Assembly (NCBI GenBank): GCA_030390025.1
Contig: CM059432.1
Coordinates: 10,850,001 to 10,914,000 of the forward strand
DNA from: Squalus acanthias
Taxonomy: Eukaryota
DNA: 64,000 nucleotides
Direction: 5' to 3'
Shown here: one piece after another, positions 40,891 to 63,035 of the stretch
Numbering within the stretch: position 1 is the first letter of the stretch
How the letters are laid out: every line of letters starts with the position of its first letter
Made by a program: the position numbers and the translations under genes
The notes under the pieces: model-generated
Seen by the model: the letters and a program-made list of their open reading frames with translations, nothing else
The model's database searches: none
What the model was told of the DNA's origin: nothing

Positions 40891-40993
40891 AAAAGATAAC
40901 CAGTCTGGTGTGTGTGAGAGTCAGACACACTGCCAGTGTATTCTGTGAGAAGTTGCACAACACCAGGTTATAGTCCAACAGCTTTATTTGAAA

Positions 40994-41030
40994 TCACAAG
41001 CTTTCGGAGCGCTGCTCCTTCGTCAGGTGA
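40994..41030 (-). ncRNA. Minimal type I hammerhead ribozyme motif (inverted arm)
   Basis: Exact reverse complement of 41422-41458. Confidence 0.8.
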
Positions 41031-41421
41031 AGTGAAGAGATGCAGAAAGTCACAGCATATTTAGTCAGAGAACACTGCCAGATGATTACAGTTAATCTTT
41101 CCAACTGCCCTTTAACCCCACCTGACGTAGAGTCATCCAGACTCGAGCCGTCGTTGGCTGTTCTCTCTACACAGATGCGGCCGGACCTGCTGTGATTACC
41201 AGCAAAAAAAGTTTTTTGTTTTCCATATAGACCCCAGCATCTGCCAGATTGTCTTTGATGTAATGTTTTCCTGACTGACCTGTTTGGACACCATCCACAC
41301 CTTTGATTGCCGTGATTATCTCTCTGCCGAGGTGTGATAAAGGGCAGTTGGAAAGATTAACTGTAATCATCTGGCAGTGTTCTCTGACTAAATATGCTGT
41401 GACTTTCTGCATCTCTTCACT

Positions 41422-41458
41422 TCACCTGACGAAGGAGCAGCGCTCCGAAAGCTTGTGA
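41422..41458 (+). ncRNA. Minimal type I hammerhead ribozyme motif
   Basis: tcac-CTGACGA-a-GGAGC-agc-GCTCC-GAAA-gc-TT-gtga: stem I tcac/gtga, both core boxes, stem II, palindromic AAGCTT stem III as in Penelope-associated minimal hammerheads. Activity untested. Confidence 0.8.
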
Positions 41459-41493
41459 TTTCAAATAAAGCTGTTGGACTATAACCTGGTGTT
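41442..41493. repeat. 52-bp target-site direct repeat (also 48051-48102, 55225-55276, 62422-62473)
   Basis: GCTCCGAAAGCTTGTGATTTCAAATAAAGCTGTTGGACTATAACCTGGTGTT is identical at all four Tx1 junctions. Confidence 0.97.
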
Positions 41494-41558
41494 GATCTTT
41501 TTGGTTGAACCCAAATTTACTGTAAATCAAATTAAAACTTTAAATGAAACTTAATAAA

Positions 41559-44500
41559 TCAAATTAAAATTTGAAAGTCCGGGGTGACGATGCACTCCAG
41601 TCCCCGCGGCGCCCACCGGTCGCGGAAAAACTCAAGCGTGCCGGCGGACACCGCGTGCTCCATCTCCAGGGCCACCCGGGCGCGAACATGGCCGCGGAAG
41701 AGAGGCAGGCAATCGGGCCGAACGACCCCCTCGATCGCCCGCTGCCTGGACCAATTAATGGCTTTCTTGGCCAGGCCCAGGAGCAGTCCTACGAGGAGGT
41801 CCTCCGACCTACCCTCTCCCCTCCGCACCGGGTGACCGTAGATCAGGAGCGTGGGGCTGAAGTGCAACCAGAAATTGAGGAGCAGCCCCTTTAGATAATG
41901 AAAGAGGGGCTGCAACCTCTCACATTCAACATAAATGTGATAAACGGACTCCTCCAGGCCGCAAAAATGACAAGCAGCCTGGGAGTCCGTAAACCTACTT
42001 AAAATCCTATTGCACGGGACTGCTCCGTGCAACACCCTCCAGGCCAAGTCCCCAATAGAACAAGGGAAGACTCCCGCGTAGAGAGCCTTCCAATGGGGAC
42101 CTTCGCCTCCGCCGGACGGCAGGATGGTACGCCAAGGCGTGTCCGGACGGCAGACGAAGATGGCAAAGTGGAGAGTGTGCAGGAGCAGCCCGTACAGGAA
42201 ACGCCTCCGTGCGGATTGAAAGGGCACGGAGGGCATTTCTCCGAGAAGGCTCAAGTGGTGAGGCGGCGGCTCCCGAGGGAGGATTCGGGGCCGGGCGCCG
42301 ATAAGGAATTCCGTCCGAACGGGGGTCAGTTCGGACGGGATCGCCCCACGTGCTTGAGCCTCCTCGACACACCTAGTGGAGACGGGGCCCAGTGCCACTT
42401 TTAGCGACTCGATGGCTTTGACCGCGAGCCGGACGTTGACCCAAGACATGCGCCTCGCCAACTCCTCCGGCGCCATCCAGCCCGCTCCTCCGCCATCGAG
42501 CAGGTCCCCGACTCTGGTCACCTTACCGGGCACAGCCCTGCCCTCCGCCAGCCAGCCGAACCCGCGGTCGTGGAGGTGCGGATTCCTGAACAGCGGCTCC
42601 CGAAGGACGGCCGCCGCTCCTGACGGGGGAGAACTGCGCTCGGAGGCGACGCTGTTCCAAACCCATAGCAGTTCCTGGTAGAAGACAGGCAGCTCCCGCA
42701 GGCTGGCACGCGTGCCACCCACTCTCACAAACAGGAGCTGCGTGTCGTAATTGAGGCCGTGCAGCTGGCGGAAGAAATACGTCGCCAGCGCACGCCACCT
42801 AGGAGGATTCTCCACGTACAGGTATCTCTGCAGCGTCTGAAGACGGAAAGTCGCCGCCTGGGTGCGAAGGCACACCAGCGCCTGACCGCCCTCCCTAAGC
42901 GGGAGACTCAAAACCGCGGCAGAGACCCAGTGCTTCCTTTTGTCCCAGAAGAAGTCGACGAGCTTCTTCTGCATCTTGGCGACAAACGCAGGGGGAGGGA
43001 TCAAAGTGACCAACCGGTACCACAACATGGCGGCCACCAGCTGGTTTATGACCAGCGCTCGACCCCTGTAGGACAACACTCGGAGCAGTCCTGTCCAGCG
43101 CCCTAGGCGAGCGGTGACTTTGGCCTCCAGCTCTTGCCAGTTCGCCGGCCAGGCGTCCTCGGCCGGGCTGAGGTAGACTCCCAGGTAGAGGAGGTGCGTG
43201 GTGCTCCAGGCGAAAGGCCCGAACTCCTCCGGCAGGGAGTCCACCCGCCATGGGCCCACCAGGAGTCCAGAACATTTCTCCCAGTTGATCTTGGCGGAGG
43301 ATGCGTCCGAGTAAATCTGCTGGCATTCTCGCATCCTCCGCAAGTCGACGGGATCCGTGACCGCGAGGAGCACGTCATCGGCGTAAGCCGAGAGGACCAC
43401 CTCCACGCCCGGCCCTTGCAGAGCCAGTCCCGTCAACCTCTTCCGCAAGAGGCGCAGGAAAGGCTCCACGCAAACTGCGTATAACTGACCGGACATGGGG
43501 CATCCCTGACGCACTCCCCTCCCGAAGCGAAGGGGCGCCGTCAAAGACCCGTTAACTTTAATGAGACACTCCGCGGCGGCGTACAGAAGTCGGATCCGGG
43601 CGACGAAATGCGTCCCGAACCCGAACGCGCGCAGAGTCCCGAAAAGATACTCGTGATCCACCCTGTCGAACGCCTTCTCCTGATCCAGGGAAAGGAAGGC
43701 GACCGACAGACCAGCCCTCTGGGAATGGTGGACCAGGTCCCGGACCAGATGGATGTTATCGTGGATACTCCGGCCCGGGACCGTGTAGGACTGGTCGGGG
43801 TGGATCATGCGGGCCAGCACGGTGCCAAGGCGAGCAGACATAGCCCTGGCGAAAATTTTGTAGTCCGTGCTGAGGAGGGAGACCGGGCGCCAGTTCTTAA
43901 GTAGGCGGAGATCGCCCTTCTTGGGCAGCAGGACGATGACCGCCCTGCGCCAAGAGAGGGGCATCTCCCCGGTCGCCAGACTTTCCCCCAGGACCCGCGC
44001 GTAGTCGTCCCCCAAGACGTCCCAGAACGCCCTGTGGAACTCCACGGTCAGCCCGTCCAGCCCCGGGGACTTGCCCCTCGAGAGCTGGCGCAGGGCGCCG
44101 GTCAGCTCCGCCAGGCTTAGCGGAGCTTCTAAATTCTCGGCGCCCTCCGGGCCGACCTTCGGCAGGTCCTCCCACAAAACTCTGCGCGCATCCTCGCTGG
44201 ACGGATCCGAAGAGAACAGAGCCCCGTAATAGGCCCGGGCCTCCGCGCTGATGCCCTCCGGATCCGAGACCAGAGATCCGTCGTCGGCCAGCAGCCCCAA
44301 GAGCTGCTTACGGACCCCCCGTCTTTTTTCCAGCGAGTAGAAGAAGGGGGAGCCGCGGTCCAGGTCCCGCAGGAACTGGATCCGCGACCTCACGTACGCG
44401 CCTCGGGACCCGACCAGCTGCAGGTCCTTCAGCGCGCCCTTCTTCTCTTCGTACACCTTCCGCAGGGCCGGGTCCTCGACGACCTGACCGAGACGGGACT

Positions 44501-45459
44501 CCAGGTCGAGCACTTCTTTCTCCAATCGCCCGACCCGGGCCTCCCGCCTCTTGGTCGACCCCTTCGCGTACTCCTGACAGAAGACGCGGACGTGAGCCTT
44601 GCCCACGTCCCACCATAGCCTCAAGGAGGGGAAGCCTCCCCGCTTCCTTCTCCAGTCGGCCCAGAACCGGCGAAACGAATCCCGGAACCGCGCGTCCTCC
44701 AGCAGCAGGTTGTTAAAATGCCAGTACGCGGACCCCCCCCCGCGCGCGCAGCGGAGCGAGCTCCGCCCACACCAGGTGGTGGTCCGTGCACGGCACCGGC
44801 CGCATGGAAGCCGCCGGAACGCAGGAGACGTACGCCCGGGAAATGTAAAGGCGGTCGATTCTGGACCTTCCTCCTCCAGACCTCACGCTCGTGAAGGCGC
44901 TGGAGTCGGGATGGAGATTTCGCCAGACGTCCACCAAGTCGAAGGACCCGACCAGGTCCCGCAACTTCTCCATCGCCGCCGGGCTTCGCGGGGGACCCGA
45001 CTGGTCCCGCGCCTCGAGGGTACAATTGAAATCCCCCCCGAGGATGACGCACTCGCCCACGTCGATGGAGCCCAGAAGAGCGGACACTTCTCCGAAGAAG
45101 CGCACTTGCTGCGCACCGGTCCGGGGGGCGTACACGTTCACTAAATGGAGCGGCACGCCTCCCAGGCGAACAGTGACCTGGAGCAAGCGGCCCGGCACGT
45201 GCTCCTTGACCCTCAAGATCTCCGGCTGAAAATGCGGGGCCAGCAAGACAGCCACCCCGCAGGAATTGTTGGAGAGGTGACTCATGCTGACCCCTCCTTG
45301 CCACTCCAGGAGCCACGTGGCCTCGTCTCCCGGAACGGTGTGGGTTTCTTGCAGGAAGCACACCGCATATTTCCCGTCCCGAAGGACCGAGAAGTTATTG
45401 AATCTACGGCGCGCCTCCCTGCTGCCGTTGATGTTGAGGCTGGCTATGGTTATCTTCAT
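41559..45459 (-). pseudogene. Tx1 ORF2 copy 1, single +1 frameshift between endonuclease and RT
   Basis: C9 instead of C8 at 44733-44741 splits EN (44713-45477) from RT/CCHC (41559-44624); otherwise open. Confidence 0.8.
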
Positions 45460-45484
45460 CTCAGAAGCATAGTGCAACCTCTAC

Positions 45485-47050
45485 CTAACGGAGGGGAGGG
45501 AGGGCGGTCACTGACGACCGCCACTCCCTCAGCAGCCCAGTGTGGAACGTCTTGAGCCGACGCAGCTCGAGCCGGTCAACGTCCTTGTCCGCGCCCATGA
45601 TTTTAACGGCGGCGCGGACGGACACGACGAGCAGCGTCAGCTCCGACCACTTGTCGAGGGCCAGCCGGATCTTCTTGTGACGACCCTGGCTCATGGCCAT
45701 AAAATCCCGGAGTTCCCCTACGGGGATGAGGGGAGAGTCGGTGAAGGGCACGAGGGCGTCCATCACCTCGCTGCCGATGGACTCCAAATCGTCCTCGTTG
45801 CCCAACACCGAGTCCCCGTCCTCCTCCGGGAGGTCGTCACCGACGGCCGACCCGTCCGTCGCACGGGGTGCAGCGAACGGCTCGGCCGCACCGGCCGGCC
45901 CCGCCTCCGTCACGATCCCACCCCCAGGATCGGTGGCAGAGGAGTCCACCCTGGGCTCCTTCAGGGGCGCCGGGCCGGGAGGCGGCGGCGGCGGTTCGGG
46001 GCCCCCCCCCGCCTCAGGCGCCGGGGCGACCGGAGAAACCGGGGAGAAAATAATCCCAAATTCCTCCAGCACGTCCGGCGCCAACATCAGAGACGGAGTC
46101 AGGGGGCTTTCTGTCTCCCCGCCACCAACCTCCGACCCAGCGGGCTGGGGATTGCTACACTCCTCCACCAGGTCGAGCAGTCCCTGGGAGATATCTGGGT
46201 TATAAAAGGCGGGCTCGGCTTCAGCCTCTTTGGCCTCGCCCACCCCAGTCCCCAGGACGCCCGACCCGCCGGAGGCCGTGGTGGAGTTGGCCTCCGATTT
46301 CGACCGCGCATCCGTCGCCGTCGACGCGCGGACAGTATCAGGGGGAGGGGGGGCGGCGGCGCCAACCCTGGCCGCGCCAGGTGTCGTGGCGGCCTTGGAG
46401 GCGGGGCAGTTTTTGCGGACGTGCCCCACCTCCTTACAGGCGTAGCACCGCACGCCGTCCGAGGTCCAGAAGACGCGGTGGGCGGTCCCCCCGTGGAGCA
46501 CCGTGAACGCGCCGTCCGCGTCCTCCTCCCGCGCCAGCCGGACGAAAAGCTGGCGCCGGAAGGAGAAGACGTGCCGAAGGCTGGCTTCCCGGAAGCCGAG
46601 CGGGATGGGTGTGATCCCCGACCTCACCTCCCCCAGTTGACGTAGGTGGGGGAGGAGGAGCTCACCCGGAACAAAGGGCGGGACGTTGGAAACCACAATC
46701 CTTTGCGCGGTGGCCTCAAGGGGGTCCACCGGCAGGAAGGTCCCGCCCACGGTGAGCCCCTTCTCGATGGCCAGGGACACCGCCCGCTCCGACCCCAGGA
46801 AGAACACAGCCTTGCCGTACATTTTAGAGGCGGCGACGATGGCTGAAGGGCCGACAACCCCAGCCATGGCTTTAACGCACGCCTCTATAGTCATGTTGGG
46901 GTGAGTGTAGCTCTTGACCCCATTCTTCCTCGTAAGGAGGGTAAAAGGTGACGGGGTAACAGGAGGACTCGTGGCTGCGGCCGTGGCCGCGGCCGCCACG
47001 CTCGCATACGTCCTCGCTGCCCCCGCCACCGACGAAGATGTACTCGCCAT
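45485..47050 (-). CDS. Tx1 ORF1p copy 1 with 197-aa in-frame deletion
   Basis: 531 versus 728 aa in the ORF track; the deletion joins TTASGG to SGVLG at a CCCG microhomology (~46265). Confidence 0.85.
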   Translation of the reverse strand: MASTSSSVAGAARTYASVAAAATAAATSPPVTPSPFTLLTRKNGVKSYTHPNMTIEACVKAMAGVVGPSAIVAASKMYGKAVFFLGSERAVSLAIEKGLTVGGTFLPVDPLEATAQRIVVSNVPPFVPGELLLPHLRQLGEVRSGITPIPLGFREASLRHVFSFRRQLFVRLAREEDADGAFTVLHGGTAHRVFWTSDGVRCYACKEVGHVRKNCPASKAATTPGAARVGAAAPPPPDTVRASTATDARSKSEANSTTASGGSGVLGTGVGEAKEAEAEPAFYNPDISQGLLDLVEECSNPQPAGSEVGGGETESPLTPSLMLAPDVLEEFGIIFSPVSPVAPAPEAGGGPEPPPPPPGPAPLKEPRVDSSATDPGGGIVTEAGPAGAAEPFAAPRATDGSAVGDDLPEEDGDSVLGNEDDLESIGSEVMDALVPFTDSPLIPVGELRDFMAMSQGRHKKIRLALDKWSELTLLVVSVRAAVKIMGADKDVDRLELRRLKTFHTGLLREWRSSVTALPPLR

Positions 47051-48170
47051 AATGGAGGGTTCTTTAAGGGCTACACTCACCCCAAGTCACAGGCCTGAAG
47101 GTGTTAATGGCCTCGGTTTTTTTTTTTGTTTTAGTTTTCCCCTGAGCAGAGGGAGCTCTTAAATTGAAGGCACACCTCTCCCTTTAGTTGATTGAGTTGG
47201 GAGAGGGGCCTTCTCCCCTCTGCTCAATGGGTACTTAATTAAAAAGATAATGAGGTGCCTCTTAGAGAGAGAGAGGCAGAGAGAGACAAGAGACAAAGAG
47301 AGAGAGAGAGAGAGAGAGGGGGGGGTGGGAAGGAGGGAAGCCGCAAGGGCAGGGTCGCCACTCAGGATGGTGGGTGGGTGGGTGTTGGCAGGGGGGTGCA
47401 CTCTCCGATGTAATAAAAGTCTTTGGTGGTGGTCTTCTGGTGGGGGGAGAAGATGTCTTCACCTGGGACAGCTGGAGATGCCCAGGCTCAGTCCTGCACC
47501 AGGTCTTAACGATGCCCAATAATATTAAATTAATTGGGGACTTCACCTAGGCAGCTCCAGCTGTCCCAGGTCAGGCAATGGGAAAGGGGTGTTTAATATG
47601 GTGTGTGCGGCCTAGCTTTTACAAAAGCCACACACACACACACACCCCTTGGATGTTCCGGCCCTCTTCTTATCTTCTTTCCTCCCCCCACCTACAAAAC
47701 AAAGTCTCTGGGAGAGTGCACCAGAATCACACCCACCTGTAGCTGTTGTTCTTTCCTTCCTTCCTCCTTCCAAACAGATGATGGATGTTGTGTTGTTTTC
47801 TCCCCTCTCTCCCTCTCCTAAAATGGAGGCCAATTGAGGAGGCAGTGATGGGAAAGGCCTCTCCTCTGTTGTTAATGTCCTTGGCCTTCCTTTCTTTTCT
47901 TTCTCCTCTCCTGTCCTCTCTCTCCAGGCACCTCAGTTGTGGTTGTTGGTTGTGGGTTGGTGGTGGTCTGCTATCTGGTCTCCTTCTCCTTCTCCTCTTC
48001 CTGCTCACAGAGACCACCACTCTGCTGCTGCTGCTGCTCCTTCGTCAGCAGCTCCGAAAGCTTGTGATTTCAAATAAAGCTGTTGGACTATAACCTGGTG
48101 TTGCTCTTTTTGGTTTGTCAAATCAAAATTTACTGTAAATCAATTAAAACTTGAAATGAAACTTAACAAA

Positions 48171-51100
48171 TCAAATCAAAATTTGGAAGTCCGGGGTGAC
48201 GATGCACTCCAGTCCCCGCGGCGCCCACCGGTCGCGGAAAAACTCAAGCGTGCCGGCGGACACCGCGTGCTCCATCTCCAGGGCCACCCGGGCGCGAACA
48301 TGGCCGCGGAAGAGAGGCAGGCAATCGGGCCGAACGACCCCCTCGACCGCCCGCTGCCTGGACCAATTAATGGCTTTCTTGGCCAGGCCCAGGAGCAGTC
48401 CTACGAGGAGGTCCTCCGACCTACCCGCTCCCCTCCGCACCGGGTGACCGTAGATCAGGAGCGTGGGGCTGAAGTGCAACCAGAAATTGAGGAGCAGCCC
48501 CTTCAAATAATGAAAGAGGGGCTGCAACCTCTCACACTCAATATAAATGTGATAGACGGACTCCTCCAGGCCGCAGAAATGACAAGCAGCCTGGGAGTCC
48601 GTAAACCTACTTAAAATCCTATTGCACGGGACTGCTCCGTGCAACACCCTCCAGGCCAAGTCCCCAATAGAACAAGGGAAGACTCCCGCGTAGAGAGCCT
48701 TCCAATGGGGACCTTCGCCTCCGCCGGACGGCAGGATGGTACGCCAAGGCGTGTCCGGACGGCAGACGAAGATGGCAAAGTGGAGAGTGTGCAGGAGCAG
48801 CCCATACAGGAAACGCCTCCGTGCGGATTGAAAGGGCACGGAGGGCATTTCTCCGAGAAGGCTCAAGTGGTGAGGCGGCGGCTCCGAGGGAGGATTCGGG
48901 GCCGGGCGCCGATAAGGAATTCCGTCCGAACGGGGGTCAGTTCGGACGGGATCGCCCCACGTGCTTGAGCCTCCTCGACACACCTAGTGGAGACGGGGCC
49001 CAGTGCCACTTTTAGCGACTCGATGGCTTTGACCGCGAGCCGGACGTTGACCCAAGACATGCGCCTCGCCAACTCCTCCGGCGCCATCCAGCCCGCTCCT
49101 CCGCCATCGAGCAGGTCCCCGACTCTGGTCACCTTACCGGGCACAGCCCTGCCCTCCGCCAGCCAGCCGAACCCGCGGTCGTGGAGGTGCGGATTCCTGA
49201 ACAGCGGCTCCCGAAGGACGGCCGCCGCTCCTGACGGGGGAGAACTGCGCTCGGAGGCGACGCTGTTCCAAACCCATAGCAGTTCCTGGTAGAAGACAGG
49301 CAGCTCCCGCAGGCTGGCACGCGTGCCACCCACTCTCACAAACAGGAGCTGCGTGTCGTAATTGAGGCCGTGCAGCTGGCGGAAGAAATACGTCGCCAGC
49401 GCACGCCACCTAGGAGGATTCTCCACGTACAGGTATCTCTGCAGCGTCTGAAGACGGAAAGTCGCCGCCTGGGTGCGAAGGCACACCAGCGCCTGACCGC
49501 CCTCCCTAAGCGGGAGACTCAAAACCGCGGCAGAGACCCAGTGCTTCCTTTTGTCCCAGAAGAAGTCGACGAGCTTCTTCTGCATCTTGGCGACAAACGC
49601 AGGGGGAGGGATCAAAGTGACCAACCGGTACCACAACATGGCGGCCACCAGCTGGTTTATGACCAGCGCTCGACCCCTGTAGGACAACACTCGGAGCAGT
49701 CCTGTCCAGCGCCCTAGGCGAGCGGTGACTTTGGCCTCCAGCTCTTGCCAGTTCGCCGGCCAGGCGTCCTCGGCCGGGCTGAGGTAGACTCCCAGGTAGA
49801 GGAGGTGCGTGGTGCTCCAGGCGAAAGGCCCGAACTCCTCCGGCAGGGAGTCCACCCGCCATGGGCCCACCAGGAGTCCAGAACATTTCTCCCAGTTGAT
49901 CTTGGCGGAGGATGCGTCCGAGTAAATCTGCTGGCATTCTCGCATCCTCCGCAAGTCGACGGGATCCGTGACCGCGAGGAGCACGTCATCGGCGTAAGCC
50001 GAGAGGACCACCTCCACGCCCGGCCCTTGCAGAGCCAGTCCCGTCAACCTCTTCCGCAAGAGGCGCAGGAAAGGCTCCACGCAAACGGCGTATAACTGAC
50101 CGGACATGGGGCATCCCTGACGCACCCCCCTCCCGAAGCGAAGGGGCGCCGTCAAAGACCCGTTAACTTTAATGAGACACTCCGCGGCGGCGTACAGAAG
50201 TCGGATCCGGGCGACGAAATGCGTCCCGAACCCGAACGCGCGCAGAGTCCCGAAAAGATACTCGTGATCCACCCTGTCGAACGCCTTCTCCTGATCCAGG
50301 GAAAGGAAGGCGACCGACAGACCAGCCCTCTGGGAATGGTGGACCAGGTCCCGGACCAGATGGATGTTATCGTGGATACTCCGGCCCGGGACCGTGTAGG
50401 ACTGGTCGGGGTGGATCATGCGGGCCAGCACGGTGCCAAGGCGAGCAGACATAGCCCTGGCGAAAATTTTGTAGTCCGTGCTGAGGAGGGAGACCGGGCG
50501 CCAGTTCTTAAGTAGGCGGAGATCGCCCTTCTTGGGCAGCAGGACGATGACCGCCCTGCGCCAAGAGAGGGGCATCTCCCCGGTCGCCAGACTTTCCCCC
50601 AGGACGTCCCAGAACGCCCTGTGGAACTCCACGGTCAGCCCGTCCAGCCCCGGGGACTTGCCCCTCGAGAGCTGGCGCAGGGCGCCGGTCAGCTCCGCCA
50701 GGCTTAGCGGAGCTTCTAAATTCTCGGCGCCCTCCGGGCCGACCTTCGGCAGGTCCTCCCACAAAACTCTGCGCGCATCCTCGCTGGACGGATCCGAAGA
50801 GAACAGAGCCCCGTAATAGGCCCGGGCCTCCGCGCTGATGCCCTCCGGATCCGAGACCAGAGATCCGTCGTCGGCCAGCAGCCCCAAGAGCTGCTTACGG
50901 ACCCCCCGTCTTTTTTCCAGCGAGTAGAAGAAGGGGGAGCCGCGGTCCAGGTCCCGCAGGAACTGGATCCGCGACCTCACGTACGCGCCTCGGGACCCGA
51001 CCAGCTGCAGGTCCTTCAGCGCGCCCTTCTTCTCTTCGTACACCTTCCGCAGGGCCGGGTCCTCGACGACCTGACCGAGACGGGACTCCAGGTCGAGCAC

Positions 51101-52046
51101 TTCTTTCTCCAATCGCCCGACCCGGGCCTCCCGCCTCTTGGTCGACCCCTTCGCGTACTCCTGACAGAAGACGCGGACGTGAGCCTTGCCCACGTCCCAC
51201 CATAGCCTCAAGGAGGGGAAGCCTCCCCGCTTCCTTCTCCAGTCGGCCCAGAACCGGCGAAACGAATCCCGGAACCGCGCGTCCTCCAGCAGCAGGTTGT
51301 TAAAATGCCAGTACGCGGACCCCCCCCCGCGCGCGCAGCGGAGCGAGCTCCGCCCACACCAGGTGGTGGTCCGTGCACGGCACCGGCCGCATGGAAGCCG
51401 CCGGAACGCAGGAGACGTACGCCCGGGAAATGTAAAGGCGGTCGATTCTGGACCTTCCTCCTCCAGACCTCACGCTCGTGAAGGCGCTGGAGTCGGGATG
51501 GAGATTTCGCCAGACGTCCACCAAGTCGAAGGACCCGACCAGGTCCCGCAACTTCTCCATCGCCGCCGGGCTTCGCGGGGGACCCGACCGGTCCCGCGCC
51601 TCGAGGGTACAATTGAAATCCCCCCCGAGGATGACGCACTCGCCCACGTCGATGGAGCCCAGAAGAGCGGACACTTCTCCGAAGAAGCGCACTTGCTGCG
51701 CACCGGTCCGGGGGGCGTACACGTTCACTAAATGGAGCGGCACGCCTCCCAGGCGAACAGTGACCTGGAGCAAGCGGCCCGGCACGTGCTCCTTGACCCT
51801 CAAGATCTCCGGCTGAAAATGCGGGGCCAGCAAGACAGCCACCCCGCAGGAATTGTTGGAGAGGTGACTCATGCTGACCCCTCCTTGCCACTCCAGGAGC
51901 CACGTGGCCTCGTCTCCCGGAACGGTGTGGGTTTCTTGCAGGAAGCACACCGCATATTTCCCGTCCCGAAGGACCGAGAAGTTATTGAATCTACGGCGCG
52001 CCTCCCTGCTGCCGTTGATGTTGAGGCTGGCTATGGTTATCTTCAT
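48171..52046 (-). pseudogene. Tx1 ORF2 copy 2, frameshifted
   Basis: +1 in a C-run (C9 versus C8) at ~51320, 24-bp in-frame deletion at ~50600 (DVLGDDYARVLGES to DVLGES), 1-bp deletion at ~48885; split into three ORFs in the track. Confidence 0.85.
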
Positions 52047-52071
52047 CTCAGAAGCATAGTGCAACCTCTAC

Positions 52072-54228
52072 CTAACGGAGGGGAGGGAGGGCGGTCACTG
52101 ACGACCGCCACTCCCTCAGCAGCCCAGTGTGGAACGTCTTGAGCCGACGCAGCTCGAGCCGGCCAACGTCCTTGTCAGCGCCCATGATTTTAACGGCGGC
52201 GCGGACGGACACGACGAGCAGCGTCAGCTCCGACCACTTGTCGAGGGCCAGCCGGATCTTCTTGTGACGACCCTGGCTCACGGCCATAAAATCCCGGAGT
52301 TCCCCTACGGGGATGAGGGGAGAGTCGGTGAAGGGCACGAGGGCGTCCATCGCCTCGCTGCCGATGGACTCCAAATCGTCCTCGATGCCCCCCACCGAGT
52401 CCCCGTCCTCCTCCGGGAGGTCGTCACCGGCGGCCAACCCGTCCGTCACACAGGGTGCAGCGAACGGCTCGGCCGCACCGGCCGGCCCCGCCTCCGTCAC
52501 GATCCCACCCCCAGGATCGGTGGCAGAGGAGTCCACCCTGGGCTCCTTCAGGGGCGCCGGGCCGGGAGGCGGCGGCGGCGGTTCGGGGCCCCCCCCCGCC
52601 TCAGGCGCCGGGGCGACCGGAGAAACCGGGGAGAAAATAATCCCAAATTCCTCCAGCACGTCCGGCGCCAACAACAGAGACGGAGTCAGGGGGCTTTCCG
52701 TCTCCCCGCCACCAACCTCCGACCCAGCGGGCTGGGGATTGCTACACTCCTCCACCAGGTCGAGCAGTCCCTGGGAGATATCTGGGTTATAAAAGGCGGG
52801 CTCGGCTTCAGCCTCTTTGGCCTCGCCCGCCCCAGTCCCCAGGACGCCCGACCCGGCGAGGAGCAACGGTTCAGGTTCTACATTTTCTTCCGCGGGTTGT
52901 TCCGCGCCCCCCCCCACGGGCAGGGTCTCTTCCCCATCCCCGGGAGGCACAGGTCGGACAGACTCGGCTGTCTCACCCTCCCGAGGGACAGACGACCCCT
53001 GCCGATCGCGCGCGACGATGACGGTGGTGGGGTGGGGCGCAGCACCCGCGGCGGGCGACTGCCCCCCTTTTGCGGAGGGACCTTCCTCCTCGCAGTCCTC
53101 CTGCTGGGGGCGGAGCTTTCTTTTTAACGTATTGGGGCCCGGAGAGGGGGAGGCCTCCATGTCTGCTGGGGCCTCCCTCTCTGCCCCCTTCCGACGACTG
53201 GGTTTCTTGGGCCCCTCGGGCCCGAGCCCGGCCGCAGGTCTTGATTCAGCTGCCTCAGCAGTTGCGGTCACGGTCACGGGCCCGGGCACGAGGACCCCCC
53301 CAGTCTCATGCGTCCCGACCAACTCCGCGATATACTCGGGCGTGAGTTCGGTCAATTCCGATGTTTCCTCCGCGAGGGGATCCGCCCTTAGGTGTTTAGT
53401 TTTCCTACGCGCCTTCCTTCCCCCCGGACGCTCTCCCTCCTCCCCGCCGGAGGCCGTGGTGGTGTTGGCCTCCGATTTCGACCGCGCATCCGTCGCCGTC
53501 GACGCGCGGACAGTATCAGGGGGAGGGGGGGCGGCGGCGCCAACCCTGGCCGCGCCAGGTGTCGTGGCGGCCTTGGAGGCGGGGCAGTTTTTGCGGACGT
53601 GCCCCACCTCCTTACAGGCGTAGCACCGCACGCCGTCCGAGGTCCAGAAGACGCGGTGGGCGGTCCCCCCGTGGAGCACCGTGAACGCGCCATCCGCGTC
53701 CTCCTCCCGCGCCAGCCGGACGAAAAGCTGCCGCCGGAAGGAGAAGACGTGCCGAAGGCTGGCTTCCCGGAAGCCGAGCGGGATGGGTGTGATCCCCGAC
53801 CTCACCTCCCCCAGTTGACGTAGGTGGGGGAGGAGGAGCTCACCCGGAACAAAGGGCGGGACGTTGGAAACCACAATCCTTTGCGCGGTGGCCTCAAGGG
53901 GGTCCACCGGCAGGAAGGTCCCGCCCACGGTGAGCCCCTTCTCGATGGCCAGGGACACCGCCCGCTCCGACCCCAGGAAGAACACAGCCTTGCCGTACAT
54001 TTTAGAGGCGGCGACGATGGCTGAAGGGCCGACAACCCCAGCCATGGCTTTAACGCACGCCTCTATAGTCATGTTGGGGTGAGTGTAGCTCTTGACCCCA
54101 TTCTTCCTCGTAAGGAGGGTAAAAGGTGACGGGGTAACAGGAGGACTCGTGGCTGCGGCCGTGGCCGCGGCCGCCACGCTCGCATACGTCCTCGCTGCCC
54201 CCGCCACCGACGAAGATGTACTCGCCAT
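52072..54228 (-). CDS. Tx1 ORF1p copy 2 (intact, 718 aa)
   Basis: Same protein as copy 3 apart from a cluster of substitutions near the C-terminus (CVTDGLAAG..GGIEDD). Confidence 0.9.
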   Translation of the reverse strand: MASTSSSVAGAARTYASVAAAATAAATSPPVTPSPFTLLTRKNGVKSYTHPNMTIEACVKAMAGVVGPSAIVAASKMYGKAVFFLGSERAVSLAIEKGLTVGGTFLPVDPLEATAQRIVVSNVPPFVPGELLLPHLRQLGEVRSGITPIPLGFREASLRHVFSFRRQLFVRLAREEDADGAFTVLHGGTAHRVFWTSDGVRCYACKEVGHVRKNCPASKAATTPGAARVGAAAPPPPDTVRASTATDARSKSEANTTTASGGEEGERPGGRKARRKTKHLRADPLAEETSELTELTPEYIAELVGTHETGGVLVPGPVTVTATAEAAESRPAAGLGPEGPKKPSRRKGAEREAPADMEASPSPGPNTLKRKLRPQQEDCEEEGPSAKGGQSPAAGAAPHPTTVIVARDRQGSSVPREGETAESVRPVPPGDGEETLPVGGGAEQPAEENVEPEPLLLAGSGVLGTGAGEAKEAEAEPAFYNPDISQGLLDLVEECSNPQPAGSEVGGGETESPLTPSLLLAPDVLEEFGIIFSPVSPVAPAPEAGGGPEPPPPPPGPAPLKEPRVDSSATDPGGGIVTEAGPAGAAEPFAAPCVTDGLAAGDDLPEEDGDSVGGIEDDLESIGSEAMDALVPFTDSPLIPVGELRDFMAVSQGRHKKIRLALDKWSELTLLVVSVRAAVKIMGADKDVGRLELRRLKTFHTGLLREWRSSVTALPPLR

Positions 54229-55349
54229 AATGGAGGGTTCTTTAAGGGCTACACTCACCCCAAGTCACAGGCCTGAAGGTGTTAATGGCCTCGGTTTTTT
54301 TTTTGTTTTAGTTTTCCCCTGAGCAGAGGGAGCTCTTAAATTGAAGGCACACCTCTCCCTTTAGTTGATTGAGTTGGGAGAGGGGCCTTCTCCCCTCTGC
54401 TCAATGGGTACTTAATTAAAAAGATAATGAGGTGCCTCTTAGAGAGAGAGAGGCAGAGAGAGACAAGAGACAAAGAGAGAGAGAGAGAGAGGGGGGGGTG
54501 GGAAGGAGGGAAGCCGCAAGGGCAGGGTCGCCACTCAGGATGGTGGGTGGGTGGGTGTTGGCAGGGGGGTGCACTCTCCGATGTAATAAAAGTCTTTGGT
54601 GGTGGTCTTCTGGTGGGGGAAGAAGATGTCTTCACCTGGGATAGCTGGAGATGCCCAGGCTCAGTCCTGCACCAGGTCTTAACGATGCCCAATTGGATTA
54701 AATTAATTGGGGAACTTCACCTAGGCAGCTCCAGCTGTCCCAGGTCAGGCAATGGGAAAGGGGTGTTTAATATGGTGTGTGCGGCCTAGCTTTTACAGAA
54801 GCCACACACACACACACCCCTTAGATGTTCCGGCCCTCTTCTTTTCTTCTTTCCTCCCCCCACCTACAAAACAAAGTCTCTGGGAGAGTGCACCAGAATC
54901 ACACCCACCTGTAGCTGTTGTTCTTTCCTTCCTTCCTCCTTCCAAACAGATGATGGTTGTTGGTGTTTTCTCCCCTCTCTCCCTCTCCTAAAATGGAGGC
55001 CAATTGAGGAGGCAGTGTGGAAAGGCCTCTCCTCTGGTGTTAATGTCCTTGGCCTTCCTTTCTTTTCTTTCTCCTCTCCTGTCCTCTCTCTCCAGGCACC
55101 TCAGTTGTGGTTGTTGGTTGTGGGTTGGTGGTGGTCTGCTATCTGGTCTCCTTCTCCTTCTCCTCTTCCTGCTCACAGAGACCACCACTCTGCTGCTGCT
55201 GCTGCTGCTGCTCCTTCGTCAGCAGCTCCGAAAGCTTGTGATTTCAAATAAAGCTGTTGGACTATAACCTGGTGTTTTTTTTTTTTGTTTTTTTTTGGAC
55301 AACACAAATTTACTGTAAATCAATTAAAATTTTAAATGAAACTTAATAA

Positions 55350-58300
55350 TCAAATCAAAATTTCGAAGTCCGGGGTGACGATGCACTCCAGCCCCCGCGG
55401 CGCCCACCGGTCGCGGAAAAACTCAAGCGTGCCGGCGGACACCGCGTGCTCCATCTCCAGGGCCACCCGGGCGCGAACATGGCCGCGGAAGAGAGGCAGG
55501 CAATCGGGCCGAACGACCCCCTCGACCGCCCGCTGCCTGGACCAATTAATGGCTTTCTTGGCCAGGCCCAGGAGCAGTCCTACGAGGAGGTCCTCCGACC
55601 TACCCGCTCCCCTCCGCACCGGGTGACCGTAGATCAGGAGCGTGGGGCTGAAGTGCAACCAGAAATTGAGGAGCAGCCCCTTCAAATAATGAAAGAGGGG
55701 CTGCAACCTCTCACATTCAACATAAATGTGATAAACGGACTCCTCCAGGCCGCAAAAATGGCAAGCAGCCTGGGAGTCCGTAAACCTACTTAAAATCCTA
55801 TTGCACGGGACTGCTCCGTGCAACACCCTCCAGGCCAAGTCCCCAATAGAACAAGGGAAGACTCCCGCGTAGAGAGCCTTCCAATGGGGACCTTCGCCTC
55901 CGCCGGACGGCAGGATGGTACGCCAAGGCGTGTCCGGACGGCAGACGAAGATGGCAAAGTGGAGAGTGTGCAGGAGCAGCCCGTACAGGAAACGCCTCCG
56001 TGCGGATTGAAAGGGCACGGAGGGCATTTCTCCGAGAAGGCTCAAGTGGTGAGGCGGCGGCTCCCGAGGGAGGATTCGGGGCCGGGCGCCGATAAGGAAT
56101 TCCGTCCGAACGGGGGTCAGTTCGGACGGGATCGCCCCACGTGCTTGAGCCTCCTCGACACACCTAGTGGAGACGGGGCCCAGTGCCACTTTTAGCGACT
56201 CGATGGCTTTGACCGCGAGCCGGACGTTGACCCAGGACATGCGCCTCGCCAACTCCTCCGGCGCCATCCAGCCCGCTCCTCCGCCATCGAGCAGGTCCCC
56301 GACTCTGGTCACCTTACCGGGCACAGCCCTGCCCTCCGCCAGCCAGCCGAACCCGCGGTCGTGGAGGTGCGGATTCCTGAACAGCGGCTCCCGAAGGACG
56401 GCCGCCGCTCCTGACGGGGGAGAACTGCGCTCGGAGGCGACGCTGTTCCAAACCCATAGCAGTTCCTGGTAGAAGACAGGCAGCTCCCGCAGGCTGGCAC
56501 GCGTGCCACCCACTCTCACAAACAGGAGCTGCGTGTCGTAATTGAGGCCGTGCAGCTGGCGGAAGAAATACGTCGCCAGCGCACGCCACCTAGGAGGATT
56601 CTCCACGTACAGGTATCTCTGCAGCGTCTGAAGACGGAAAGTCGCCGCCTGGGTGCGAAGGCACACCAGCGCCTGACCGCCCTCCCTAAGCGGGAGACTC
56701 AAAACCGCGGCAGAGACCCAGTGCTTCCTTTTGTCCCAGAAGAAGTCGACGAGCTTCTTCTGCATCTTGGCGACAAACGCAGGGGGAGGGATCAAAGTGA
56801 CCAACCGGTACCACAACATGGCGGCCACCAGCTGGTTTATGACCAGCGCTCGACCCCTGTAGGACAACACTCGGAGCAGTCCTGTCCAGCGTCCTAGGCG
56901 AGCGGTGACTTTGGCCTCCAGCTCTTGCCAGTTCGCCGGCCAGGCGTCCTCGGCCGGGCTGAGGTAGACTCCCAGGTAGAGGAGGTGCGTGGTGCTCCAG
57001 GCGAAAGGCCCGAACTCCTCCGGCAGGGAGTCCACCCGCCATGGGCCCACCAGGAGTCCAGAACATTTCTCCCAGTTGATCTTGGCGGAGGATGCGTCCG
57101 AGTAAATCTGCTGGCATTCTCGCATCCTCCGCAAGTCGACGGGATCCGTGACCGCGAGGAGCACGTCATCGGCGTAAGCCGAGAGGACCACCTCCACGCC
57201 CGGCCCTTGCAGAGCCAGTCCCGTCAACCTCTTCCGCAAGAGGCGCAGGAAAGGCTCCACGCAAACGGCGTATAACTGACCGGACATGGGGCATCCCTGA
57301 CGCACCCCCCTCCCGAAGCGAAGGGGCGCCGTCAAAGACCCGTTAACTTTAATCAGACACTCCGCGGCGGCGTACAGAAGTCGGATCCGGGCGACGAAAT
57401 GCGTCCCGAACCCGAATGCGCGCAGAGTCCCGAAAAGATACTCGTGATCCACCCTGTCGAACGCCTTCTCCTGATCCAGGGAAAGGAAGGCGACCGACAG
57501 ACCAGCCCTCTGGGAATGGTGGACCAGGTCCCGGACCAGATGGATGTTATCGTGGATGCTCCGGCCCGGGACCGTGTAGGACTGGTCGGGGTGGATCATG
57601 CGGGCCAGCACGGTGCCAAGGCGAGCAGACATAGCCCTGGCGAAAATTTTGTAGTCCGTGCTGAGGAGGGAGACCGGGCGCCAGTTCTTAAGTAGGCGGA
57701 GATCGCCCTTCTTGGGCAGCAGGACGATGACCGCCCTGCGCCAAGAGAGGGGCATCTCCCCGGTCGCCAGACTTTCCCCCAGGACCCGCGCGTAGTCGTC
57801 CCCCAAGACGTCCCAGAACGCCCTGTGGAACTCCACGGTCAGCCCGTCCAGCCCCGGGGACTTGCCCCTCGAGAGCTGGCGCAGGGCGCCGGTCAGCTCC
57901 GCCAGGCTTAGCGGAGCTTCTAAATTCTCGGCGCCCTCCGGGCCGACCTTCGGCAGGTCCTCCCACAAAACTCTGCGCGCATCCTCGCTGGACGGATCTG
58001 AAGAGAACAGAGCCCCGTAATAGGCCCGGGCCTCCGCGCTGATGCCCTCCGGATCCGAGACCAGAGATCCGTCGTCGGCCAGCAGCCCCAAGAGCTGCTT
58101 ACGGACCCCCCGTCTTTTTTCCAGCGAGTAGAAGAAGGGGGAGCCGCGGTCCAGGTCCCGCAGGAACTGGATCCGCGACCTCACGTACGCGCCTCGGGAC
58201 CCGACCAGCTGCAGGTCCTTCAGCGCGCCCTTCTTCTCTTCGTACACCTTCCGCAGGGCCGGGTCCTCGACGACTTGACCGAGACGGGACTCCAGGTCGA

Positions 58301-59249
58301 GCACTTCTTTCTCCAATCGCCCGACCCGGGCCTCCCGCCTCTTGGTCGACCCCTTCGCGTACTCCTGACAGAAGACGCGGACGTGAGCCTTGCCCACGTC
58401 CCACCATAGCCTCAAGGAGGGGAAGCCTCCCCGCTTCCTTCTCCAGTCGGCCCAGAACCGGCGAAACGAATCCCGGAACCGCGTGTCCTCCAGCAGCAGG
58501 TTGTTAAAATGCCAGTACGCGGACCCCCCCCGCGCGCGCAGCGGAGCGAGCTCCGCCCACACCAGGTGGTGGTCCGTGCACGGCACCGGCCGCATGGAAG
58601 CCGCCGGAACGCAGGAGACGTACGCCCGGGAAATGTAAAGGCGGTCGATTCTGGACCTTCCTCCTCCAGACCTCACGCTCGTGAAGGCGCTGGAGTCGGG
58701 ATGGAGATTTCGCCAGACGTCCACCAAGTCGAAGGACCCGACCAGGTCCCGCAACTTCTCCATCGCCGCCGGGCTTCGCGGGGGACCCGACCGGTCCCGC
58801 GCCTCGAGGGTACAATTGAAATCCCCCCCGAGGATGACGCACTCGCCCACGTCGATGGAGCCCAGAAGAGCGGACACTTCTCCGAAGAAGCGCACTTGCT
58901 GCGCACCGGTCCGGGGGGCGTACACGTTCACTAAATGGAGCGGCACGCCTCCCAGGCGAACAGTGACCTGGAGCAAGCGGCCCGGCACGTGCTCCTTGAC
59001 CCTCAAGATCTCCGGCTGAAAATGCGGGGCCAGCAAGACAGCCACCCCGCAGGAATTGTTGGAGAGGTGACTCATGCTGACCCCTCCTTGCCACTCCAGG
59101 AGCCACGTGGCCTCGTCTCCCGGAACGGTGTGGGTTTCTTGCAGGAAGCACACCGCATATTTCCCGTCCCGAAGGACCGAGAAGTTATTGAATCTACGGC
59201 GCGCCTCCCTGCTGCCGTTGATGTTGAGGCTGGCTATGGTTATCTTCAT
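55350..59249 (-). CDS. Tx1 ORF2p copy 3: APE endonuclease, reverse transcriptase, C-terminal CCHC finger (1299 aa from the first ATG)
   Basis: APE motifs SLNING, LQET, NVYAP, GGDFN, SRIDR, TDH; RT motifs KSPGLDG, WRPVSLL, DQEKAFD, RQGCP, YADD; zinc motif CHFC..HIYVEC; uninterrupted. The ORF track starts 18 nt earlier at a TTG. Confidence 0.95.
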   Translation of the reverse strand: MKITIASLNINGSREARRRFNNFSVLRDGKYAVCFLQETHTVPGDEATWLLEWQGGVSMSHLSNNSCGVAVLLAPHFQPEILRVKEHVPGRLLQVTVRLGGVPLHLVNVYAPRTGAQQVRFFGEVSALLGSIDVGECVILGGDFNCTLEARDRSGPPRSPAAMEKLRDLVGSFDLVDVWRNLHPDSSAFTSVRSGGGRSRIDRLYISRAYVSCVPAASMRPVPCTDHHLVWAELAPLRARGGSAYWHFNNLLLEDTRFRDSFRRFWADWRRKRGGFPSLRLWWDVGKAHVRVFCQEYAKGSTKRREARVGRLEKEVLDLESRLGQVVEDPALRKVYEEKKGALKDLQLVGSRGAYVRSRIQFLRDLDRGSPFFYSLEKRRGVRKQLLGLLADDGSLVSDPEGISAEARAYYGALFSSDPSSEDARRVLWEDLPKVGPEGAENLEAPLSLAELTGALRQLSRGKSPGLDGLTVEFHRAFWDVLGDDYARVLGESLATGEMPLSWRRAVIVLLPKKGDLRLLKNWRPVSLLSTDYKIFARAMSARLGTVLARMIHPDQSYTVPGRSIHDNIHLVRDLVHHSQRAGLSVAFLSLDQEKAFDRVDHEYLFGTLRAFGFGTHFVARIRLLYAAAECLIKVNGSLTAPLRFGRGVRQGCPMSGQLYAVCVEPFLRLLRKRLTGLALQGPGVEVVLSAYADDVLLAVTDPVDLRRMRECQQIYSDASSAKINWEKCSGLLVGPWRVDSLPEEFGPFAWSTTHLLYLGVYLSPAEDAWPANWQELEAKVTARLGRWTGLLRVLSYRGRALVINQLVAAMLWYRLVTLIPPPAFVAKMQKKLVDFFWDKRKHWVSAAVLSLPLREGGQALVCLRTQAATFRLQTLQRYLYVENPPRWRALATYFFRQLHGLNYDTQLLFVRVGGTRASLRELPVFYQELLWVWNSVASERSSPPSGAAAVLREPLFRNPHLHDRGFGWLAEGRAVPGKVTRVGDLLDGGGAGWMAPEELARRMSWVNVRLAVKAIESLKVALGPVSTRCVEEAQARGAIPSELTPVRTEFLIGARPRILPREPPPHHLSLLGEMPSVPFQSARRRFLYGLLLHTLHFAIFVCRPDTPWRTILPSGGGEGPHWKALYAGVFPCSIGDLAWRVLHGAVPCNRILSRFTDSQAACHFCGLEESVYHIYVECERLQPLFHYLKGLLLNFWLHFSPTLLIYGHPVRRGAGRSEDLLVGLLLGLAKKAINWSRQRAVEGVVRPDCLPLFRGHVRARVALEMEHAVSAGTLEFFRDRWAPRGLECIVTPDFEILI

Positions 59250-59274
59250 CTCAGAAGCATAGTGCAACCTCTAC

Positions 59275-62473: not shown

Positions 62474-62526
62474 GTGCGACTTCTCACATTTGTCCACCCC
62501 AGTCCAACACAGGCATCTCCACATCA
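62474..62526 (+). mobile_element. Right end of the Penelope-like element split by the Tx1 array
   Basis: GTGCGACTTCTCACATTTGTCCACCCCAGTCCAACACAGGCATCTCCACATCA continues the target as in the uninterrupted copy at 17267-17371. Confidence 0.85.
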
Positions 62527-63035
62527 AGTGTATTCTGTGTGTGTGAGAGTCAGACACACTGCCTGTGTATTCTGTGTGCGTGAGAGTCAGACACACTGCC
62601 AGTGTATTCTGTGTGTGTGAGAATCAGACACACTGCCAGTCTATTCTGTGTGTGTGAGAATCAGACACACTGCCAGTCTATTCTGTGTGTGTGAGATTCA
62701 GACACATTGCCAGTCTATTCTGTGTGTGTGAGAATCAGACACACTGCCAGTACACACCGCCAGTGTATTCTGTGTGTGTGAGAGTCAGACACACTGCCAG
62801 TGTATTCGGTGTGTGTGAGAATCAGACACACTGCCAGTGTATTCTGTGTGTGTGAGAGTCAGACACACTGCCAGTGTATTCGGTGTGTGTGAGAATCAGA
62901 CACACTGCCCGTGTATTCTGTGTGTGGGAATCAGACACACTGCCCGTGTATTGTGTGTGTGTGAGAGTCAGACACACTGCCAGTCTACTGTGTGTGTGGG
63001 AGTCAGACACACTGCCAGTCTACTGTGTGTGTGTG
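62527..63035. repeat. Minisatellite, ~37-bp unit AGTGTATTCTGTGTGTGTGAGAGTCAGACACACTGCC, about 13 units
   Basis: Visible tandem units; one unit stranded at ~40908-40947; degenerate units at ~63355-63380 and 63848-64000. Confidence 0.95.

What the first reader, a model, noticed from the sequence alone, without database searches (positions are those of the whole stretch)
41442..41493. Unusually long, invariant 52-bp target duplication that regenerates the landing site
Seen: four identical 52-mers bound three elements. Known: L1/Tx1 TSDs are usually under about 25 bp and variable in length. Either the two nicks are staggered by about five helical turns, or the 52-mer is carried on the element RNA 5' end, comparable to R2 transcripts carrying upstream 28S sequence. 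Either way each insertion recreates a target and allows array growth. The boundary is the start of the hammerhead stem II 3' arm, not the predicted ribozyme cleavage site (after 41454).
Basis: partly seen in the sequence, partly recalled or inferred. Interest (0 to 1): 0.75.

Follow-up and report, generated by a model that had tools for sequence, protein, structure and literature searches.

The report
Inherited target copy mimics long duplication
Four identical 52-base spacers separate three Tx1-type jumping genes, but shortened copies of the same family in public sequencing data are flanked by only 14 bases of that spacer, so the other 38 bases are likely a piece of the landing site that full-length copies inherit at their front end rather than an unusually long duplication made at each jump.

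Summary
Observation confirmed: four exact 52-mers (41442, 48051, 55225, 62422) bound three Tx1-clade LINEs on the minus strand, stacked in the hammerhead-bearing end of a Penelope-like element. The headline, a 52-bp TSD, is not supported. In public contigs, 5'-truncated copies join the target at 62460 (5 of the 6 element-to-target joints among 15 of 57 joints shown) or 62463, and none of those shown joins at 62422. The ordinary TSD is therefore 14(-15) bp. The remaining 38 bp, plus a 16-bp inverted scrap of adjacent target, most likely form an inherited 5' head. It would come from one aberrant ancestral junction and be re-inserted precisely because the cDNA anneals to the short overhang. Precedents are earwig R2 (a propagated 22-bp downstream duplication) and Drosophila R1 (TSD-spaced arrays). 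Local tandem duplication is unlikely: three different tails, 0.63-0.75% divergence. Not excluded: a 5'-end-directed long stagger in full-length insertions only. The private-SNP test could not be run. The scan noted this family and the carried copy before, elsewhere in this genome.

The parts
41442..41493 (+). 52-mer copy 1: native target left on the elements' 3' side (41442-41479 native Penelope-like sequence; 41480-41493 the 14-bp true TSD)
   Evidence: exact match; continuous with the hammerhead upstream; TSD length
41422..41458 (+). Minimal type-I hammerhead motif of the Penelope-like terminal repeat (core 41426-32, unpaired A, stem II 41434-38/41442-46, GAAA 41447-50, predicted cut after 41454)
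   Evidence: architecture as described in PMC4209133; no Rfam match
41494..48050 (-). Tx1 copy E1 (6557 bp; 591-bp deletion in ORF1; ORF2 broken by a one-base insertion shared with E2); with the inferred head it would extend to 48088
48051..48102 (+). 52-mer copy 2: 48051-48088 inferred carried head of E1; 48089-48102 true TSD
48103..55224 (-). Tx1 copy E2 (7122 bp; ORF1 intact, ORF2 broken); with the inferred head it would extend to 55262
55225..55276 (+). 52-mer copy 3: 55225-55262 inferred carried head of E2; 55263-55276 true TSD
55277..62421 (-). Tx1 copy E3 (7145 bp, both ORFs open); with the inferred head it would extend to 62459
55350..59267 (-). ORF2 of E3: AP-type endonuclease, reverse transcriptase, C-terminal zinc-binding domain; 50% identical over 1299 aa to Xenopus laevis Tx1 ORF2
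59275..61461 (-). ORF1 of E3 (728 aa) with a CCHC zinc knuckle
62404..62419 (-). 16-bp inverted copy of target 41426-41441 (the bases just beyond the 52-mer boundary) at the element 5' end, joined to the 52-mer by 2 extra bases; same in E1 (48033-48048) and E2 (55207-55222)
62422..62459 (-). 38-bp target-derived segment present on full-length copies and missing at the truncated junctions shown: the inferred carried head of E3
62460..62474 (+). True target-site duplication, 14 bp (62460-62473), or 15 with the ambiguous G at 62474
   Evidence: five truncated junctions at 62460; 3' junctions at 62474
62474..62526 (+). Rest of the Penelope-like terminal repeat (target flank on the elements' 5' side)
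   Evidence: 17267-17371 matches 62422-62526 at 98%
40944..41114 (-). Inverted arm of the same Penelope-like insertion: an uninterrupted copy of the local target with its own hammerhead motif (core at 41026) and an exact 52-mer
62527..63035 (.). 37-bp minisatellite into which the Penelope-like element inserted (the same unit occurs at 40904-40947)

Best explanation
Three Tx1-clade LINEs sit at the same base of a Penelope-like terminal repeat, truncated copies of the family show a 14(-15)-bp target duplication, and the other 38 bp of each 52-mer is likely an inherited 5' head that full-length copies carry in with them. SHOWN: the same 3' insertion point; the short duplication on truncated copies; the base-identical 5' junction of 3 of 3 full-length copies, with a 16-bp inverted piece of adjacent target next to it. 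INFERRED: (1) the endonuclease nicks the plus strand after 41493/4 to prime reverse transcription, and the other strand 14-15 bp away. (2) One ancestral insertion made an aberrant 5' junction at the stem II inverted repeat, adding 38 bp of downstream target plus the inverted 16 bp. (3) Descendant RNAs start in or upstream of the short TSD, so the cDNA end anneals to the 14-15-nt overhang and rebuilds 14 + 38 = 52 bp without variation, while truncated cDNAs lack the head and show the bare TSD. (4) Each insertion leaves an intact site on its 5' side, and later independent insertions there build the array.
For: table 5 (15 of 57 joints shown): 6 link the element interior to the target. Five go to 62460 (from 55522, 55566, 55590, 55931 in run X2 and 56237 in run X1), one goes to 62463 (from 56305), and none to 62422; the other 9 are skips within the element. 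Rough chance of 5 of 6 sharing one of 79 positions is 1.5e-7 (uniform assumption, rows chosen by the tool). No microhomology of more than 1 base explains those joints. Table 5c (12 of 26 rows shown): a truncated copy ending at 55626 is joined to another copy's tail through only about 13 bp of target; 3 rows put the 3' junction at 62474. Full-length junctions are identical in 3 of 3, including 2 extra bases and the inverted 16-mer, as expected of inherited sequence. Different tails and tract-wise variants (57 sites in 21 runs, 0 of 10000 shuffles), many of whose alleles occur in the X2 contigs, point to different source copies. Precedent: all earwig R2 5' junctions carry a 22-bp duplication of downstream 28S, explained as a propagated aberrant junction (PMC3774820); in Drosophila R1, full-length and truncated copies can have different 5' junction classes, and arrays are spaced by the 14-bp TSD (PMC2718515).
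Against: The private-SNP test was not possible: no host genome is held, and all four 52-mers equal the local target. The RNA 5' end was not observed (only contigs hold the element; the one raw-read run laid 16 reads). The truncated junctions are single short contigs with 21-29 letters on the shorter side, laid at 92% likeness, and 4 of 6 are marked 'between: not known'; the tool warns that such joints can come from repeats. 42 of 57 joints and 644 loose ends were not shown, so truncated copies with a 52-bp flank, or full-length copies without the head, cannot be excluded. The joints come from runs of organism A, which may not be the window's species (all three copies differ from the X2 majority at several sites); runs X4 and X21 gave none among the rows shown. 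One joint (56995 to 62475 with a T run between) fits neither model. No ribozyme that would define the RNA 5' end was found.
Confidence: 0.77

Rival explanations
1. 5'-end-directed long stagger. The default second nick is 14-15 bp away, but in full-length insertions the element's 5' 16-mer (as RNA pairing with the top strand, or as cDNA folding back on the bottom strand) marks the stem II boundary and moves the second nick to 52 bp, so the 52-mer is a true TSD for full-length copies only.
For: The 16-bp match ends exactly at the 52-mer boundary. Truncated copies lack this end, so their short TSD does not exclude it. Stage and Eickbush raise the same idea for melanogaster-type R1, where the 5' end of full-length transcripts may redirect top-strand cleavage (PMC2718515 section 15).
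Against: It needs the flank beyond the boundary to be adjacent at each insertion, which forces the order E3, E2, E1, with later nicks at sites whose other flank is an element tail. The simpler order (each copy entering the intact regenerated site) leaves nothing to pair with for E2 and E3. The order itself could not be determined. It also needs base-exact run-off three times. One inherited aberrant junction explains the same match with known chemistry.
Confidence: 0.13
2. Local copying. The RNA lacks the 38 bp; the finished cDNA end pairs with the 5' end of the resident copy (or later gene conversion acts) and copies the 52-mer from the neighbouring DNA.
For: All four 52-mers equal the local target and its inverted arm, whereas the other target copy in the window differs at one base. 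The three elements are mosaics, so exchange between copies occurs somewhere.
Against: It does not explain the first insertion of an array. Identity with the local target is also expected if this allele is common; its frequency was not visible in the 40 of 202 variant rows shown.
Confidence: 0.06
3. Local tandem duplication or unequal crossing-over copied one unit (element plus 52-mer) twice.
For: Head-to-tail arrangement, 99% identity and identical 5' junctions.
Against: Three different 3' tails; 44-49 substitutions per pair with no closer pair; E1-like and E2-like tail junctions occur in other samples' contigs. It would also leave the first 52-bp repeat unexplained.
Confidence: 0.02
4. Constitutive 52-bp stagger of the two nicks at every insertion.
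For: 3 of 3 copies in the window have it. Long true TSDs exist: 126 bp for rotifer R9, as cited in PMC9977147.
Against: 0 of the 6 truncated junctions shown have it; 5 of 6 are at 14 bp.
Confidence: 0.02

Closest known systems
Tx1L of Xenopus laevis (Tx1 clade type element, inserted in the transposon Tx1D; PMC4494074, PMC1950540)
   Same: Two ORFs, AP endonuclease-RT-zinc domain ORF2 that is 50% identical over its whole length, insertion at a fixed site inside another transposable element.
   Different: The target here is the hammerhead-bearing terminal repeat of a Penelope-like retroelement, antisense to its RNA; full-length copies show an extra 38 bp of target plus an inverted 16 bp. I did not see a paper describing Tx1L 5' junctions.
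R2 elements with propagated 5' junction duplications (earwig, sow bug, horseshoe crab; Eickbush et al. 2013, PMC3774820)
   Same: A uniform target-derived duplication at the 5' junction of all full-length copies (earwig: 22 bp from downstream of the site), explained by target sequence on the RNA annealing to the site.
   Different: R2 has a restriction-like endonuclease, and an HDV-like ribozyme defines the RNA 5' end; here the endonuclease is AP-type and no such ribozyme was found. The earwig duplication has substitutions that prove inheritance; this one has none against the local target.
Drosophila R1 elements (Stage and Eickbush 2009, PMC2718515)
   Same: AP-type endonuclease, 14-bp TSD, tandem arrays formed by re-insertion into the regenerated TSD, and (melanogaster type) different 5' junction classes for full-length and truncated copies owing to target sequence on the RNA.
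   Different: R1 carries upstream 28S sequence, giving deletions or rearrangements; here the carried piece is from downstream of the top-strand nick and joins the TSD seamlessly, mimicking a long TSD.
Crocodilian Tx1-Mar and SINEU (Kojima 2015, PMC4494074)
   Same: Tx1-clade targeting of another transposon, tandem insertions sandwiching a TSD, and a 5' extension (SINEU-2B) derived from the target transposon.
   Different: Target is a Mariner element, preference is looser, and the extension is only weakly similar to the target.
R9 of Adineta vaga (126-bp TSD; seen only as cited in PMC9977147 and PMC5035012)
   Same: Apparent long fixed duplication at a specific site.
   Different: R9's is reported as a true TSD; here truncated copies show the long repeat is not the default TSD.

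Membership tests
Tx1 clade non-LTR retrotransposon | ORF2 with N-terminal AP endonuclease, RT and C-terminal zinc-binding domain; separate ORF1 | tested here: met
   Pfam Exo_endo_phos 1.7e-11, RVT_1 8.5e-38, zf-RVT 4.4e-05 (below its cut-off); ORF1 zf-CCHC 2.3e-04
Tx1 clade non-LTR retrotransposon | Closest named full-length relative is a Tx1 ORF2 | tested here: met
   X. laevis Tx1 149-kDa protein, 651/1299 identical; 120 of 346 hits listed
Tx1 clade non-LTR retrotransposon | RT phylogeny places it in the Tx1 clade | not tested
   No tree was built; labelled clade references were not fetched
Target-specific Tx1 family | Fixed 3' junction in one repeated target | tested here: met
   3 of 3 window copies; 3 rows at 62474 among 12 of 26 shown in table 5c. 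Genome-wide fraction not measured
True 52-bp TSD | Same duplication length on 5'-truncated copies | tested here: not met
   5 of 6 shown junctions at 14 bp, 1 at 11 bp, 0 at 52 bp
True 52-bp TSD | Both repeats share private variants of the local target | not testable with these tools
   No host genome; no variant distinguishes the four copies from the local target
R2/R1-like carried 5' target sequence | Uniform 5' junction on full-length copies, absent from truncated ones | tested here: met
   3 of 3 full-length identical; absent at 6 of 6 truncated joints shown
R2/R1-like carried 5' target sequence | Target sequence present on the RNA 5' end | not testable with these tools
   Only contigs hold the element; they cannot show an RNA start
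R2/R1-like carried 5' target sequence | 5' self-cleaving HDV-like ribozyme (R2) | tested here: not met
   0 hits with my relaxed, recalled descriptor (4 of 30 shuffles gave a hit); no ribozyme family among 15 weak Rfam matches
Penelope-like element terminal repeat (the target) | Minimal hammerhead with short stem I, unpaired base 5' of stem II and palindromic loop III | tested here: met
   against the description in PMC4209133; the only two such motifs in the window are the two arms
Penelope-like element terminal repeat (the target) | Linked ORF with telomerase-like RT and GIY-YIG endonuclease | tested here: inconclusive
   No long open frame in 41100-41500; this copy is a short non-coding insertion, and an autonomous partner was not available
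Penelope-like element terminal repeat (the target) | Ribozyme self-cleavage | not testable with these tools
   Only indirect: two single-contig junctions at the predicted cut

The most novel reading that the evidence does not exclude
A Tx1 LINE uses 16 bases at its own 5' end as a guide: pairing with the target just beyond the boundary redirects the second-strand nick from 14 to 52 bp in full-length insertions only. That would be nucleic-acid-guided second-strand cleavage by an AP-endonuclease retrotransposon.
Probability: 0.13. Interest if true: 0.85.

Novelty: new variant of a known kind. Interest (0 to 1): 0.35.

Why it matters
How LINEs attach their 5' end is the least understood step of retrotransposition. 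This family offers a clean natural contrast at one site: truncated copies mark the default second nick (14-15 bp), while full-length copies end with a base-exact 52-bp repeat. With a host assembly, private SNPs in the very numerous target copies would decide between carried sequence and a redirected nick. It is also a caution for annotation: a long invariant 'TSD' read from full-length copies alone can be an inherited head. A Tx1 family aimed at a Penelope-like terminal repeat was not found in my literature searches, but the mechanism has close precedents in R1 and R2.

Tried and rejected
The host genome is not held, so no genome-wide census. A 23-base target pattern gave 0 exact matches in viral, metagenome and prokaryotic genome contigs. 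A metagenome scan with ORF2 gave 9 distant loci (25-42% identity); I checked 4 of the 9 for direct repeats and found nothing bearing on this target (L001 is flanked by TC microsatellite). Rfam: no match at gathering score in the whole window, and only sub-threshold matches at the 5' end and the target. Folding the element-sense 5' end gave no hammerhead and weak z-scores (-0.29 to -2.21), and the hammerhead scan found no motif on the element strand, so ribozyme trimming of the Tx1 RNA by this motif was rejected. Ordering the three insertions by age failed: CpG-type losses were 2, 4 and 4, and copy-specific sites fall in tracts that look like lineage variants. Raw-read run X21 barely holds the element (16 reads laid), so it gave no junction counts. 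The shared boundary of the solo target copy at 17267 was considered as evidence for a preferred break and set aside: a 7-bp duplication around that copy overlaps its first three bases.

Full report
1. Observation. The 52-mer is exact at +41442, +48051, +55225 and +62422. Two further copies exist: exact on the minus strand at 41010-40959, and with one mismatch at +17267. Between the four direct copies lie three elements on the minus strand, E1 41494-48050, E2 48103-55224 and E3 55277-62421, differing by 49, 44 and 45 substitutions per pair (0.63-0.75%). All three have the same 5' junction to the base, apart from the number of AGC repeats just inside; their 3' tails all differ.

2. The elements. 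E3 has two open frames. ORF2 matches Exo_endo_phos, RVT_1 and zf-RVT, and ORF1 a CCHC knuckle. ORF2 is 50% identical over 1299 aa to Xenopus laevis Tx1 ORF2. Partial hits to a horn shark (75% over 27% of the query) and a stingray (69% over 33%) suggest a cartilaginous-fish host (inference). No tree was built.

3. The target. The sequence around 41422-41458 is a minimal type-I hammerhead: stem I of 4 bp, core, an unpaired A, a 5-bp stem II, GAAA, a palindromic loop III, and a predicted cut after 41454. This fits the Penelope-element motif of Cervera and De la Pena (PMC4209133, part 1 of 4 read). The only other such motif in the window is in an inverted arm (40944-41114), so the empty site was a short Penelope-like insertion with inverted arms inside a 37-bp minisatellite. 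No Penelope ORF is linked here, so the label rests on the motif and the layout. The Tx1 RNA is antisense to the hammerhead, which therefore cannot define its 5' end.

4. The decisive test available. A true nick stagger should appear on 5'-truncated copies too; a carried head should not. Eighteen of 24 listed public runs hold half or more of the element's words. I laid 4 of them on 55277-62527 (E3, one 52-mer and the target flank) at 92% likeness. Of 57 joints, 15 were shown. Six link the element interior to the target: 55522, 55566, 55590, 55931 (run X2) and 56237 (run X1) to 62460, and 56305 to 62463. None goes to 62422; nine are skips inside the element. Position 62460 leaves 14 bp of target before the 3' junction, or 15 with the G at 62474. 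In table 5c (12 of 26 rows shown), three rows place the 3' junction at 62474, one at depth 2098 with an E2-like tail. One row shows a copy truncated at 55626 joined to another copy's tail by about 13 bp of target, an array spacer far shorter than 52. One row (56995 to 62475 with a T run) fits neither model. Limits: these are single short contigs (21-29 letters on the shorter side), most rows were hidden, X4 and X21 gave no such joint among those shown, and organism A may not be the window's species.

5. What the other 38 bp is. The segment 62422-62459 is present on 3 of 3 full-length copies and missing at 6 of 6 truncated joints shown. Directly inside it, after 2 extra bases, each element begins with an exact 16-bp inverted copy of target 41426-41441, the bases just beyond the boundary. 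A direct 38-bp piece and an inverted 16-bp piece meeting at the stem II inverted repeat look like the scar of one aberrant 5' junction (inference). If later transcripts begin in or upstream of the short TSD, their cDNA can anneal to the 14-15-nt overhang and rebuild the whole 52-mer exactly (inference, by analogy). Eickbush et al. 2013 report this for R2: uniform junctions when target sequence is on the RNA, and a 22-bp downstream duplication in all earwig copies, explained as a propagated aberrant event (PMC3774820, abstract and passages). Stage and Eickbush 2009 report R1 arrays spaced by the 14-bp TSD, and different junction classes for full-length and truncated copies (PMC2718515, passages and section 15). 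Kojima 2015 reports Tx1 families targeting other transposons, tandem copies sandwiching a TSD, and a target-derived 5' extension (PMC4494074, introduction, parts 2-3 of 5 and passages).

6. Array growth. Three different tails and no closer pair argue for separate insertions, not tandem duplication. Copy-specific sites fall in tracts (57 sites, 21 runs, 0 of 10000 shuffles as clustered), and many of the alleles occur in X2 contigs (I used 32 of the 40 variant rows shown, of 202), so the copies look like mosaics of circulating lineages. The order of insertion could not be fixed. Whether the 38-bp head helps re-targeting is not shown; the short-spacer tandem suggests it may not be needed.

7. Rivals. 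The strongest is a second nick redirected to 52 bp by the element's 5' 16-mer in full-length insertions only (0.13). The truncated data do not exclude it, and a similar idea was raised for R1, but it forces one insertion order and needs more new chemistry. Local copying from the resident copy (0.06), tandem duplication (0.02) and a constitutive 52-bp stagger (0.02) fit worse. Even a true 52-bp TSD would not be a record: R9 is cited at 126 bp (PMC9977147, passages; the R9 paper itself not seen).

8. Novelty. A Tx1 family targeting a Penelope-like terminal repeat did not appear in the listings of my searches (one search returned 0 papers). Repbase and Kojima and Fujiwara 2004 were not available, and no supplements were read, so a database description may exist. 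Other papers seen: PMC11167929 (parts 1-2 of 4), bioRxiv 10.64898/2026.07.22.740005, PMC4640811, PMC5035012, PMC1919474, PMC1950540 and PMC3747384 (passages only). The scan itself noted this family on other pieces of the same genome, including a carried target copy (e1-7851855) and a 15-letter site (e1-7852016), and a separate note on this window reads the 16-mer as an inherited scar (e1-7940689). These are unchecked AI notes; I reached the short TSD before seeing them.

9. Verdict. The repeats are real. The unusually long TSD is most likely an ordinary 14-15-bp TSD plus an inherited 38-bp head: a new variant of a known kind, interest 0.35.

Noticed in passing
window 41494-62421: Copy-specific substitutions among E1, E2 and E3 fall in long tracts (21 runs for 57 sites, 0 of 10000 shuffles), so the copies are mosaics; recombination between lineages or conversion within the array.
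   Followed up: partly
window, E1 near 44620 and E2 near 51210 (E3 position 58523): E1 and E2 share a one-base insertion in a C run that breaks ORF2; the same insertion is in 4 contigs of run X2, hinting at a defective sub-lineage mobilised in trans or a recurrent slip.
   Followed up: partly
window 40551-40890: An older 3' fragment of a related Tx1 (about 85% identical) lies just left of the Penelope-like insertion, at a site only loosely like the target; it stops at nearly the same element position as the truncated copy at 55626 in run X2. Unexplained.
   Followed up: partly
window 17267-17371: A solo Penelope-like end inside another repeat (recalled as a shark SINE/LINE tail), flanked by a 7-bp duplication, starts at the same base as the 52-mer, probably through a 3-base microhomology.
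   Followed up: partly
window 62434-62436: Two single-contig junctions sit at the predicted hammerhead cut: a joint 62478 to 62435 in X2, and an inverted upstream piece joined before 62436 in X1. A possible trace of ribozyme-cut RNA ends in Penelope-like insertions.
   Followed up: no
window 39950-40520 and 40904-63035: The whole nest (old Tx1 fragment, Penelope-like insertion, three Tx1 copies) sits in a 37-bp minisatellite beside a CpG-rich, promoter-like stretch.
   Followed up: no
The element is held at 0.73-0.78 of its words by runs labelled as 8 different organisms, so the family is near-identical across several related species.
   Followed up: no
L001:613-840 and 6381-6436: A distant Tx1-like element (37% ORF2 identity) in a metagenome contig is flanked by TC microsatellite on both sides, like the Kibi families.
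   Followed up: no
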